NCBI GenBank assembly: GCA_948524275.1
Contig: CAOSLI010000002.1
Coordinates: 51,953-115,952, forward strand
Source of the DNA: an uncultured Clostridia bacterium
GTDB lineage: Bacteria > Bacillota > Clostridia > TANB77 > CAG-508
Direction: 5' to 3'
Length of the DNA: 64,000 nt
Of this stretch, positions 3,815 through 4,844 are shown one piece after another. The position numbers were made by a program, and so were the translations under genes. The notes beneath the pieces are model-generated. The model was given only the letters and a program-made list of their open reading frames with translations, made no database searches and had not been told where the DNA came from. Position 1 is the stretch's first letter; every line of letters begins with the position of its first letter.

Positions 3815-3847
3815 ATTTAAGGCGTGGGACTTCCCACGCCTTTTTTC
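3815..3847. terminator. GC-rich hairpin (GGCGTGGGA-CT-TCCCACGCC) followed by a T-run; copy 1 of an exact 28-bp repeat
   Basis: 9-bp GC stem followed by TTTTTTCT. The 28-mer is identical to 4811-4838. Confidence 0.75.
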
Positions 3848-3849
3848 TA

Positions 3850-4707
3850 CTAATATTCTTTTTCAATAATAAAATTATTTTTTTCTAAACTCTTTTTACA
3901 TTCTTTTTCTAGCTGTTTTAAACTTTTTTGTGGGGTTGGTAAATCTTCTGGCATACTTCCACCATTTTTTGCAATTACTTCTCTAATATTTTTTCCAATA
4001 TTGTAATGTGTATTATTAGCCTCTTTCTCATTACAAATATTATCTTTTTTTAATCTTGCTTCAGTCTGAGTAATGCGAAATAAATTGGCTGCAAGTTCTT
4101 CGCTTCCCATATTATCTAAAATATCTTCTCTATATCTTAGCCCTTTTCTTTTTGCAATATCATCAGCTGTTTCACCATTGTATAATCCCTTATATCCACT
4201 ATTATGAAACTTATCAAAATTCTTAACTCCTGCTTTTTTTGCGGTCTGATTAAGTGAATAATTTCCCTTTCTTGTTAAGTCTCTTTGATAAAATCTTTTC
4301 TCATCTTCTGTTAATACTCCGTATTCTTTTTCGCTAATTTCCTGTTTTCTAGTTTGAACTGCAAAATATGTTTGTGCAAGACTAATTACCTTCTTTCTAC
4401 TATCTCCATTTTGTGCTATTAGATAACAAGCATAACGAGTTAATTCATAATCAATTTGTTCCCTATAAGCTCCTGAACCGATTTTAACCATTTTATTGAC
4501 GTCAATAAAATGCTCAGATACACTCACATCACTATTTTGGCAAGATATTTTAGCTTTATCAATTATTTTTTCAAAGTTCTGCCAATTTGAATATTGTAAA
4601 ATAGGCATAAGTTCCCTAGCATACCAAAATTCCATGCCCTCTTTATCAATATGTTTAATCTCTTCAAAGGATTTATTATTTTTTTCTACATCTTTCAATA
4701 CAATCAT
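3850..4707 (-). CDS. dinD: DNA-damage-inducible protein D homolog
   Basis: 285 aa, collinear with E. coli DinD (FEEIKH..EGQEFWSAREL, RYACYLVVQNGD, QTYFAIQTR, NHGYxGLY, MGSTELAANLFRxTQTE, TMPEELPTPQ). Confidence 0.85.
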   Translation of the reverse strand: MIVLKDVEKNNKSFEEIKHIDKEGMEFWYARELMPILQYSNWQNFEKIIDKAKISCQNSDVSVSEHFIDVNKMVKIGSGAYREQIDYELTRYACYLIAQNGDSRKKVISLAQTYFAVQTRKQEISEKEYGVLTEDEKRFYQRDLTRKGNYSLNQTAKKAGVKNFDKFHNSGYKGLYNGETADDIAKRKGLRYREDILDNMGSEELAANLFRITQTEARLKKDNICNEKEANNTHYNIGKNIREVIAKNGGSMPEDLPTPQKSLKQLEKECKKSLEKNNFIIEKEY

Positions 4708-4736
4708 CTTCCTTTCTTTTTATCTATCTTGTTGTT

Positions 4737-4765
4737 ATCATAAAACAATTGTTTGTCTATGTCAA
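4737..4765 (-). promoter_or_regulatory. sigma-A type promoter (TTGACA-17-TATGAT) for dinD, with a 12-bp perfect palindrome AAACAATTGTTT in the spacer (candidate LexA/SOS operator)
   Basis: On the minus strand: TTGACAtagacaaacaattgttttaTGATAA. The palindrome at 4743-4754 resembles the Gram-positive Cheo-box half-sites (G)AAC-N4-GTT(C). Confidence 0.5.
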
Positions 4766-4810
4766 GGAGTTTTTAGAATAAATTGGCTCTATTTTATATT
4801 TTTATTTATA

Positions 4811-4844
4811 ATTTAAGGCGTGGGACTTCCCACGCCTTGTTTTT
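4811..4844. terminator. second exact copy of the 28-bp GC hairpin repeat, 4 nt downstream of the folD stop
   Basis: The same ATTTAAGGCGTGGGACTTCCCACGCCTT 28-mer, followed by TTGTTTTT. Confidence 0.7.

What the first reader, a model, noticed from the sequence alone, without database searches (positions are those of the whole stretch)
3815..4844. dinD homolog bracketed by two identical 28-bp GC-rich hairpin repeats
An exact 28-mer, ATTTAAGGCGTGGGACTTCCCACGCCTT, occurs at 3815-3842 and 4811-4838, 996 bp apart. Between them lie only the DinD-like gene and its promoter. The hairpins are far more GC-rich than the surrounding DNA. Identical flanking repeats suggest the gene arrived or was retained as a cassette, or that a repeated terminator element recombines here.
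Basis: seen in the sequence. Interest (0 to 1): 0.55.

Follow-up and report, generated by a model that had tools for sequence, protein, structure and literature searches.

The report
Duplicated terminator hairpin flanking dinD
Two copies of one transcription-terminator hairpin sit on either side of a small accessory gene (dinD-like, an untested phage-defence candidate); they are ordinary terminators that were copied locally and can recombine, not a new kind of mobile element.

Summary
The exact 28-mer is at 3815-3842 and 4811-4838 (0 expected by chance), and the repeat extends to 47 nt at 91% (3805-3851 / 4801-4847). Only a sigma-70-like promoter and a 285-aa DinD gene (NCBIfam PRK11525; PADLOC PDC-S13) lie between the copies.

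The hairpin is an intrinsic terminator (10-bp stem, about -19.5 kcal/mol). It is conserved in this clade at the 3' end of the convergent LRR gene.

Five related lineages form a series:
- L035: folD then priA directly.
- L033: folD, one hairpin, LRR, no dinD.
- L032: folD, a degenerate AT-rich hairpin, dinD, hairpin, LRR.
- L058: folD, a diverged hairpin with a compensatory change, dinD.
- Window: identical hairpins on both sides of dinD.

The window's upstream copy matches its own downstream copy (43/47) better than its positional counterpart in L058 (33/47). It also keeps the T-tail on the wrong strand for folD.

Best reading: paralogous terminators, homogenised by a roughly 47-nt gene conversion or re-duplication. 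As direct repeats they allow dinD loss, with L033 as the expected product.

The hairpin is not a dispersed family in anything searched. A second duplicated terminator brackets a PDC-S01 ATPase at 54-56 kb. Modest interest.

The parts
3805..3851 (+). T_down: the 47-nt repeat unit holding hairpin 3819-3842 (AAGGCGTGGG-ACTT-CCCACGCCTT) and a TTTTTTC tail on the + strand. It is the convergent terminator shared by the LRR gene (+, stop at 3703, about 115 nt upstream) and dinD (-, stop codon 3850-3852, 7 nt away).
   Evidence: Orthologous single hairpins with a homologous LRR-side flank occur in L032 (23/24) and L033 (24/24).
4801..4847 (+). T_up: the second copy (hairpin 4815-4838, tail GTTTTTAC on the + strand), lying between the folD stop codon (4848-4850, 9 nt away) and the dinD promoter. 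It is the presumed folD terminator and insulator, but it keeps the orientation of T_down.
   Evidence: It is 43/47 identical to T_down but only 33/47 to L058's hairpin at the same position.
3850..4707 (-). dinD-like gene, 285 aa. It has a Bro-N domain, matches the DinD equivalog PRK11525 and matches PADLOC phage-defence candidate PDC-S13. Relative to L032 (274 aa) the ORF is 11 codons longer, because a 1-nt deletion shifts the frame past the ancestral TAA so that it ends at the hairpin.
   Evidence: The 3' end was read.
4737..4765 (-). dinD promoter-like site (TTGACA-17-TATGAT). The palindrome CAAACAATTGTTTT (4742-4755) lies between the two hexamers. It is conserved in every dinD context examined and is probably a repressor operator.
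4848..5687 (-). folD (methylenetetrahydrofolate dehydrogenase/cyclohydrolase), the housekeeping gene upstream of T_up.
3047..3703 (+). BspA-type leucine-rich-repeat (LRR_5) gene, convergent with dinD. The GC hairpin accompanies its 3' end in every lineage that has this gene.

Best explanation
The two 28-mers are paralogous copies of one Rho-independent terminator. The ancestral copy (T_down, 3819-3842) is the terminator between the convergent LRR gene and whatever gene lies on the folD side. A second terminator (T_up) stands between folD and the dinD promoter. Its inferred role is to stop folD transcription and keep the operator-controlled dinD promoter free of read-through.

An upstream hairpin of this family is old. 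It survives in diverged form in L058 and as a degenerate AT-rich hairpin in L032. In the window's lineage a tract of about 47 nt from T_down, including both flanks, overwrote or re-created T_up by short-tract gene conversion or template switching between the two hairpins. The copies are therefore now identical, and T_up carries its T-tail on the strand that suits the LRR gene, not folD.

Because the copies are direct repeats 996 bp apart, they are also a substrate for recombinational deletion of dinD. The lineage with folD, one hairpin, LRR and no dinD (L033) is the product expected from that event.

Shown: the sequences, the folds, the conservation, the series across lineages and the identity pattern. 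Inferred: termination activity, the direction of the conversion, and loss rather than non-acquisition in L033.
For: 1. Terminator anatomy. The stem is 10 bp with 7 G-C pairs and a 4-nt loop, folds at -19.5 to -20 kcal/mol, and has T-tails on the + strand. It is one of only 12 strong perfect-stem GC hairpins in 64 kb.

2. Conservation where the surrounding intergenic DNA is not conserved. L033's hairpin is 24/24 and L032's 23/24 identical to the window's, each next to the LRR_5 gene's 3' end with a homologous flank AAATGNCAAATAAA.

3. The series of states:
- L035: folD, 53 nt, priA.
- L033/L034: folD, 39 nt, T, LRR.
- L032: folD, AT-rich hairpin, promoter, dinD, T, LRR.
- L058: folD, 96 nt, AAGGCATGGAAAATCCCATGCCTT (G6A/C19T compensatory), promoter, dinD.

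4. Marker-gene identities give (L035,(window,(L032,L033))). L058 lacks p243, as L035 does, so dinD and an upstream hairpin predate the window/L032/L033 split and L033 lost dinD.

5. The window's T_up is 43/47 identical to its own T_down and 40/47 to L032's T_down, but only 33/47 to L058's T_up. The similarity covers the A/T-tract flank (7/9) and the LRR-side flank (12/14).

6. Both window copies are scored as terminators only on the + strand. L058's and L032's upstream hairpins carry their T-runs in the folD sense.

7. Precedent for the mechanism: identical terminators flanking a gene cause recombination-mediated deletion in engineered circuits (Sleight et al., as cited in PMC8546616).
Against: - The tree rests on pairwise identities of 3-4 genes, not a formal phylogeny. 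Homologous exchange of whole alleles between lineages could mimic loss or gain.
- L058's contig ends inside dinD, so its downstream hairpin is unseen.
- L032's AT-rich hairpin aligns only weakly with T, so its orthology is uncertain.
- T_down is under strong purifying selection, being 24/24 between lineages whose genes differ by about 15% in nucleotides. Retention of an old identical duplicate without conversion therefore cannot be excluded on the hairpin alone. Only the flanks and the orientation argue against it.
- On the folD sense strand T_up is followed by UUAAAUUAUA, a poor U-tract, so its efficiency as the folD terminator is doubtful.
- No transcript data are available.
Confidence: 0.58

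Rival explanations
1. Insertion footprint. The ancestral site was folD, T, LRR, as in L033. A promoter-plus-dinD unit entered at the terminator, either by Campbell-type recombination of a circle carrying a T-like hairpin or by a staggered break across the hairpin. This duplicated about 47 nt, so the two copies mark the ends of the inserted cassette.
For: L033 has exactly one hairpin, with the folD-side spacer on one side and the LRR-side flank on the other. dinD is clearly mobile on evolutionary timescales: alleles 84-89% identical sit in at least five unrelated contexts, with homology limited to the span from the promoter to the stop codon. The window's allele is mosaic, with 4650-4440 only 51-73% identical to L032 but 83-93% identical to foreign alleles. 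A second accessory gene in the window and an operon in L020 are also bracketed by a copy of the upstream gene's terminator.
Against: The window and L032 share homologous junctions on both sides of dinD: the 3' UTR up to the hairpin, and TTTATTCT...AAAAA upstream of the -35 hexamer. That argues for one old insertion, yet L032 has no second GC hairpin and L058's is diverged. No other dinD context shows flanking repeats. No recombinase or transposase lies in or near the bracket. A 47-nt target duplication is far longer than known transposition footprints (general knowledge).
Confidence: 0.22
2. Old duplicate preserved by selection alone. Both hairpins date from the origin of the locus and have stayed identical in the window lineage because each is an essential terminator, with no conversion involved. 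L058 and L032 simply let theirs drift.
For: The hairpin itself is almost invariant across lineages at the downstream position (24/24 and 23/24), which shows that strong constraint is possible.
Against: Constraint on a stem-loop does not explain the similarity of the non-structural flanks (7/9 and 12/14), nor why T_up keeps its T-tail on the antisense side of folD. The positional orthologues in L058 and L032 changed freely, including a compensatory pair, so sequence identity as such is not required at that site.
Confidence: 0.1
3. The 28-mer is a copy of a dispersed REP- or MITE-like palindromic element, or the recognition site of a site-specific recombinase (attC-like or attL/attR of a decayed integrative element). 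The bracket would then reflect element activity.
For: It is a palindromic, GC-rich extragenic repeat in direct orientation around a single accessory gene. DinD homologs occur in Streptococcus satellite phages.
Against: There are only two copies in 64 kb even with 3 mismatches allowed. No copy turned up in any low-GC relative among 185,579 species genomes or the JGI metagenome collection, where all 32 hit loci are independent terminators of unrelated, GC-richer taxa at 36-70% GC. IMG/VR gave zero hits. No integrase, RAYT or transposase lies within about 10 kb. The cassette has its own promoter, unlike integron cassettes.
Confidence: 0.05

Closest known systems
Rho-independent (intrinsic) terminators, including bidirectional terminators between convergent genes
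   Same: A GC-rich 10-bp stem, a tetraloop and a T-run. The position is a few nucleotides after stop codons, between the convergent LRR and dinD genes, and it is conserved across lineages.
   Different: Two copies that are identical beyond the structural part stand 1 kb apart. The upstream copy is oriented with its T-run on the strand opposite to the gene it follows.
Direct-repeat-mediated deletion and short-tract gene conversion (concerted evolution of short repeats); repeated terminators destabilising engineered circuits (Sleight et al., cited in PMC8546616)
   Same: Direct repeats of 28-47 nt flank a dispensable gene, and a related lineage shows one repeat and no gene. Paralogues within a genome are more alike than positional orthologues.
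   Different: This is a natural chromosomal locus. Neither the deletion nor the conversion event has been observed directly here.
Integron gene cassettes with attC sites (including the highly similar repeats of Vibrio chromosomal integrons)
   Same: A single ORF is bounded by similar imperfect-palindrome repeats in direct orientation.
   Different: There is no IntI integrase or attI nearby, only two repeats, and the cassette has its own promoter and operator. The repeat is a perfect terminator hairpin without the extrahelical bases of attC (attC features from general knowledge; not formally tested).
REP/BIME, REPIN, Correia, BOX/RUP-type dispersed extragenic palindromes
   Same: It is an extragenic GC-rich palindrome present in more than one copy, and it may terminate transcription.
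   Different: It is not dispersed: there are two copies at one locus and none elsewhere in the window or in the public collections for this clade. No RAYT-type transposase is present.
E. coli DinD (PRK11525) / PADLOC candidate PDC-S13
   Same: The match to the DinD equivalog model is full-length (352.9 bits, about 50% identity to E. coli dinD). There is an N-terminal Bro-N domain and a palindromic operator in the promoter.
   Different: The operator AAAC-N4-GTTT is not the canonical Gram-positive LexA box GAAC-N4-GTTC (from memory). Damage induction and anti-phage activity are untested. PDC systems are untested predictions (bioRxiv 10.1101/2024.01.29.577857).

Membership tests
Intrinsic (Rho-independent) terminator | A stable GC-rich stem-loop | tested here: met
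   10-bp stem with 7 G-C pairs and a 4-nt loop, -19.5 to -20 kcal/mol, z about -6 to -7.
Intrinsic (Rho-independent) terminator | A U-tract immediately 3' of the stem on the transcribed strand of the gene it follows | tested here: inconclusive
   On the + strand both copies have one (TTTTTTC, GTTTTTAC), which suits the LRR gene at copy 1. In the sense of dinD and folD the stem is followed by TTAAAT, a weak tract, and the consensus scan scores neither copy on the - strand.
Intrinsic (Rho-independent) terminator | Transcripts actually end there | not testable with these tools
   This needs Term-seq, 3' RACE or in vitro termination assays.
Dispersed extragenic palindromic repeats (REP/REPIN/MITE-like) | Many copies scattered over the genome | tested here: not met
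   There are 2 copies in 64 kb with up to 3 mismatches allowed. There are none in related low-GC taxa in the GTDB species genomes, JGI metagenomes or IMG/VR. Caveat: the rest of this organism's genome was not available.
Integron cassette / attC | A tyrosine integrase (IntI) and attI adjacent to the array | tested here: not met
   The neighbours within about 10 kb are def, fmt, priA, LRR, folD, spoVT, PGA_cap, a KAP NTPase and a RecD2-like helicase. No integrase domain is present.
Integron cassette / attC | Promoterless ORF cassettes | tested here: not met
   dinD carries its own 11-of-12 sigma-70-like promoter with a conserved operator.
Integrative element attL/attR | A recombinase and other element genes between the repeats | tested here: not met
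   Only the promoter and dinD lie between the repeats.
Transposon or IS with target-site duplication | A transposase, terminal inverted repeats and a short (2-14 bp) duplication | tested here: not met
   There is no transposase, the repeat is 28-47 nt, and no inverted repeats lie inside the bracket.
DinD (NCBIfam PRK11525 equivalog) | A full-length HMM match above the curated cut-off | tested here: met
   352.9 bits against a cut-off of 242, covering residues 7-276 of 285, plus Bro-N PF02498.
DinD (SOS regulon member) | A LexA operator and induction by DNA damage | tested here: inconclusive
   A conserved palindrome CAAACAATTGTTTT overlaps the promoter in all contexts. It departs from GAAC-N4-GTTC and occurs only once in the window. 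Induction cannot be tested here.
PADLOC PDC-S13 (phage defence candidate) | An HMM match | tested here: met
   E = 3.5e-106.
PADLOC PDC-S13 (phage defence candidate) | Protection against phage | not testable with these tools
   PDC systems are untested predictions made by guilt-by-embedding.

The most novel reading that the evidence does not exclude
Terminator hairpins of housekeeping genes may act as landing and take-off sites for single-gene defence-candidate units of promoter plus ORF. The unit would enter next to the hairpin with a copy of it, so both the host gene and the newcomer stay properly terminated, and would leave by recombination between the copies. That would be a recombinase-free, cassette-like route for turnover of small defence islets.

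The window offers two such brackets: DinD/PDC-S13 here, and an AAA_14-DUF4143 ATPase/PDC-S01 at 54.1-55.9 kb. An unrelated Oscillospiraceae MAG offers a third, around an MBOAT/AlgX operon.
Probability: 0.12. Interest if true: 0.65.

Novelty: new member of a known kind. Interest (0 to 1): 0.33.

Why it matters
In itself this is an ordinary terminator pair. Three things make it mildly useful.

1. It is a clean natural example of the instability that synthetic biologists see with repeated terminators. A dispensable gene sits between direct repeats, and a sister lineage shows the one-repeat, no-gene state.

2. It shows concerted evolution of a 47-nt non-coding element over 1 kb.

3. Both duplicated terminators in this window bracket single genes from PADLOC's untested defence-candidate families. 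If that association held genome-wide, near-identical terminator pairs 0.5-5 kb apart would be a cheap marker for recently gained or loss-prone accessory genes.

Tried and rejected
- **Dispersed repeat family.** I searched the hairpin core AAGGCGTGGG-N4-CCCACGCCTT in the GTDB species genomes (17 loci), JGI metagenomes (15 loci) and IMG/VR (0). Every hit is in an unrelated taxon with 36-70% G+C and its own flanks, so these are independent terminators. Rejected, with the caveat that this clade is absent from those collections.
- **Repeats as a property of dinD mobility.** Contexts of P0084, P0018, P0017, P0010 and P0003 (L022-L031, L051-L057) show no flanking repeat of 12 nt or more and no shared flanks beyond the promoter and stop codon. 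Rejected.
- **Known RNA family.** The Rfam gathering-threshold scan of the window finds only two tRNAs.
- **Integron, IS or integrative element.** No recombinase is nearby.
- **Foreign base composition.** dinD at GC 0.289 and GC3 0.171 is indistinguishable from its neighbours, so this is uninformative.
- **SOS box.** The promoter palindrome has no second copy in the window, so no regulon inference is possible.
- **Literature.** Full-text searches for 'PDC-S13' and for terminator duplication around inserted genes gave nothing specific. Only the PDC definition and the synthetic-circuit precedent were useful.
- **Not done.** One homolog search, the representative-library search and the structure tools were left unused as not decisive.

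Full report
**1. The observation**

The 28-mer ATTTAAGGCGTGGGACTTCCCACGCCTT occurs exactly twice, at 3815-3842 and 4811-4838 on the + strand. No further match appears when 3 mismatches are allowed, and none is expected by chance. The similarity extends to 47 nt (3805-3851 versus 4801-4847, 43/47 identical).

Each copy is a 10-bp stem with 7 G-C pairs and a 4-nt loop, at about -19.5 to -20 kcal/mol and z about -6 to -7. The window is 30% G+C.

Between the copies lie one ORF (3850-4707, - strand, 285 aa) and one strong promoter-like site (4765-4737, TTGACA-17-TATGAT). The identical arrangement is found in independent assemblies: L002 (GCA_950022725.1), L003 and L001, and partly in L004. The feature is real.

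**2. The genes**

- The bracketed protein has a Bro-N domain and matches the NCBIfam DinD equivalog PRK11525 well above its cut-off (352.9 versus 242 bits). It also matches PADLOC's PDC-S13 (E = 3.5e-106). PDC families are untested 'phage defence candidates' predicted by embedding within known systems (bioRxiv 10.1101/2024.01.29.577857).
- To the left lies a + strand BspA-type LRR_5 gene (3047-3703), then priA on the - strand.
- To the right lies folD on the - strand, with its stop codon at 4848-4850.
- The stop codons of dinD and folD sit 7 and 9 nt from their respective hairpins.
- Both hairpins carry their T-run on the + strand (TTTTTTC and GTTTTTAC), and the consensus scan calls both as + strand terminators only. 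Copy 1 is therefore correctly oriented for the LRR gene. Copy 2 follows folD in the weak orientation, where the stem is followed by UUAAAUUAUA.

**3. Is it a dispersed family?**

In the window, no. The hairpin core, with a free loop, was scanned against 185,579 species-representative genomes, the JGI metagenome contigs and IMG/VR. These gave 17, 15 and 0 loci. All hits are in unrelated taxa with 36-70% G+C and unrelated flanks, so they are independently evolved terminators. The window's own clade is simply not represented in those collections, so the rest of this genome remains unchecked.

**4. Related lineages**

Close folD homologs and their contigs give five states of the folD-priA interval:

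| Lineage (folD aa identity to window) | Layout |
|---|---|
| L035 (85%) | folD stop, 53 nt, priA. No LRR, no dinD, no hairpin. |
| L033/L034 (90%) | folD stop, 39 nt, one hairpin identical to the window's (24/24), convergent LRR_5 gene. No dinD. |
| L032 (87%) | folD, a different AT-rich hairpin with a T-run, promoter, dinD (274 aa), one GC hairpin (23/24), LRR_5, priA. |
| L058 (91%) | folD, 96 nt, AAGGCATGGAAAATCCCATGCCTT followed by AAGTTTTTT, promoter, dinD. The contig ends inside dinD. |
| Window | The GC hairpin on both sides of dinD. |

L058's hairpin differs from T at four positions. Two of these (G6A and C19T) are a compensatory pair, so it is a diverged homologue of the same hairpin.

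The LRR-side flank AAATGNCAAATAAA is shared by the downstream hairpins of the window, L032 and, less closely, L033. It is also shared by the window's upstream copy.

**5. Polarity**

Pairwise identities of PGA_cap, SpoVT, folD and the 243-aa protein (p243) put L032 and L033 together, the window next, and L035 outside. L058 lacks p243, as L035 does, and is about 91% identical in folD to both the window and L033, so it probably branches below the other three.

On that tree, dinD (present in L058, the window and L032) and an upstream hairpin (L058, the window, and perhaps degenerate in L032) are ancestral, and L033 lost dinD.

L033's single hairpin has the folD-proximal spacer on one side: CAAGTCTAAAAA is shared with L058. 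On the other side it has the LRR-side flank. That is what recombination between an upstream and a downstream copy would leave.

This step is an inference. It rests on identities, not on a phylogeny, and allele exchange between lineages could confound it.

**6. Why the window's copies are identical**

The window's upstream copy is 43/47 identical to its own downstream copy and 40/47 to L032's downstream copy, but only 33/47 to L058's upstream copy. The similarity includes the A/T-tract flank (7/9) and the LRR-side flank (12/14). The T-run lies on the strand that suits the LRR gene, whereas L058 and L032 have theirs in the folD sense.

The simplest account is that about 47 nt of T_down replaced or re-created T_up in this lineage, by short-tract gene conversion or template switching between two hairpins 1 kb apart.

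Retention of an old duplicate by selection alone explains the stem but not the flanks or the orientation.

**7. Is dinD a mobile cassette?**

Over evolutionary time, yes, but not through these repeats.

- Alleles 84-89% identical to the window's occur in at least five unrelated contexts in other low-GC genomes. DNA homology is confined to roughly window 4775-3870, from the promoter to the stop codon.
- One allele (P0084) lies in a 1.7-kb block that is 99.7% identical in two different contexts.
- The window's allele is mosaic: 4650-4440 is 51-73% identical to L032 but 83-93% identical to foreign alleles.
- None of these contexts has flanking repeats.
- Full-length homologs at about 54% identity occur in Streptococcus satellite phages, and homologs at about 50% identity are found in E. 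coli and on some plasmids.
- Base composition gives no signal.

The window and L032 share homologous junctions on both sides of dinD. This argues for one old insertion at this locus rather than repeated arrivals.

**8. Parallels**

Of the 12 strong perfect-stem GC hairpins in the window, two are the copies of T. One more has a near-copy: 54092-54153 and 55789-55850, about 68 nt alignable and 62 nt at 89%. That pair brackets a lone - strand AAA_14/DUF4143 ATPase (54403-55629) and a 29-codon ORF, directly downstream of a TPM-domain gene whose terminator is the right-hand copy. The ATPase matches PADLOC PDC-S01 (E = 9.6e-155).

In an unrelated Oscillospiraceae MAG (L020), gdhA is followed by a terminator, an MBOAT plus AlgX-like operon, and then an identical terminator.

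Accessory units that sit between a copy of the upstream gene's terminator and the original may therefore be a recurrent pattern. I could not examine relatives of these two loci.

**9. Comparison with known systems**

The element meets the structural definition of an intrinsic terminator. It fails the tested defining features of dispersed palindromic repeats, integron cassettes, integrative-element att sites and transposon footprints (see the membership table).

It behaves like any pair of short direct repeats. Repeated terminators are a documented cause of recombinational gene loss in engineered circuits (Sleight et al., cited in PMC8546616).

**10. Verdict**

The most likely reading (about 0.6) is paralogous terminators homogenised by local conversion, which insulate folD from dinD and permit dinD loss. 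Insertion with terminator duplication is the main rival (about 0.2).

This is a new member of a known kind and of modest interest (0.33). The more novel possibility, terminator-templated turnover of single-gene defence candidates, is not excluded but is weakly supported (about 0.12).

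Noticed in passing
window 54092-54153 and 55789-55850 (bracketing 54403-55629, - strand): A second, unrelated GC-rich terminator hairpin (AGAGCGGGCGGTAAACCGCTCTTTTTT on the - strand) is duplicated: 62 nt at 89%, about 68 nt alignable, 1697 bp apart. It brackets a lone AAA_14/DUF4143 ATPase that matches PADLOC PDC-S01 (E = 9.6e-155). The right-hand copy is the terminator of the upstream TPM-domain gene (55873-56877).
   Followed up: partly
window about 54160-54250, - strand: A 29-codon ORF (MSSYELIWRLIVLLLLSDDNSENQDNKKE) with a good ribosome-binding site lies between the PDC-S01 ATPase and the left terminator copy. It has a hydrophobic core and an acidic tail. It could be a small membrane peptide or toxin-like partner, or it could be noise.
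   Followed up: no
window 8821-10770, - strand: A KAP-family P-loop NTPase (Pfam PF07693) matches PADLOC candidate PDC-S49 (E = 1.8e-74). It is conserved at this position in L002 and L032. It is not bracketed by repeats.
   Followed up: partly
window 4742-4755 (and the same position in L022-L032, L051-L058): The perfect palindrome CAAACAATTGTTTT lies between the -35 and -10 hexamers of the dinD promoter and is conserved in every genomic context of this gene. It is probably a repressor operator. It resembles the Gram-positive LexA box but does not match it, and it occurs only once in the window.
   Followed up: partly
window 4440-4650 (the Bro-N part of dinD): The allele is mosaic. This 200-nt segment is 51-73% identical to the syntenic gene of L032 (L058 also diverges, 58-70%, over the part its contig covers, to about 4530) but 83-93% identical to dinD alleles from unrelated contexts. 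The rest of the gene is about 90% identical to L032. This suggests segmental allele exchange.
   Followed up: partly
window 3850-3885 versus L032 9770-9800: A 1-nt deletion in an A-run shifts the window's dinD past the ancestral TAA. The ORF runs 11 codons further (285 versus 274 aa) and now stops 7 nt from the hairpin.
   Followed up: yes
L022 / L023 / L027, around position 4898-4901: In another species, a 1.7-kb block of dinD plus a 112-aa gene, next to a tRNA, is 99.7% identical in two contexts. The same point just upstream of the dinD promoter is interrupted in L022 by a 1.66-kb insert encoding an HTH_38 protein (possibly an IS30-family transposase, not confirmed) and in L023-L026 by a 4-kb resolvase/Mob_Pre element. 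It looks like an insertion hotspot.
   Followed up: partly
L020 4448-4471 and 7616-7639 (Oscillospiraceae MAG RGIG1703): Identical terminators (AAAAGGCGTGGGTTTCCCCACGCCTTTTTT) follow gdhA and then, 3.2 kb later, an MBOAT plus AlgX-like SGNH two-gene operon. This is the same bracket layout in an unrelated genome.
   Followed up: partly
window 5978-6709 (+) and its counterparts in L032 and L033: A 243-aa ORF with no Pfam or NCBIfam match, 41% G+C in a 30% G+C genome, lies between spoVT and folD. It is present in the window, L032 and L033 (46-66% aa identity, very fast-evolving) and absent from L035 and L058.
   Followed up: partly
window 27163-30984 (- strand, 1273 aa) and 36684-45591: Internal repeats of about 678 nt occur in three copies (28132-29769) inside a 1273-aa ORF. 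Paralogous segments are shared between large ORFs at about 37.9 kb and 44.6 kb, with shorter matches at about 38.3, 41.1 and 45.1 kb (repeat finder families D1, D4, D5, D6). I did not examine these.
   Followed up: no
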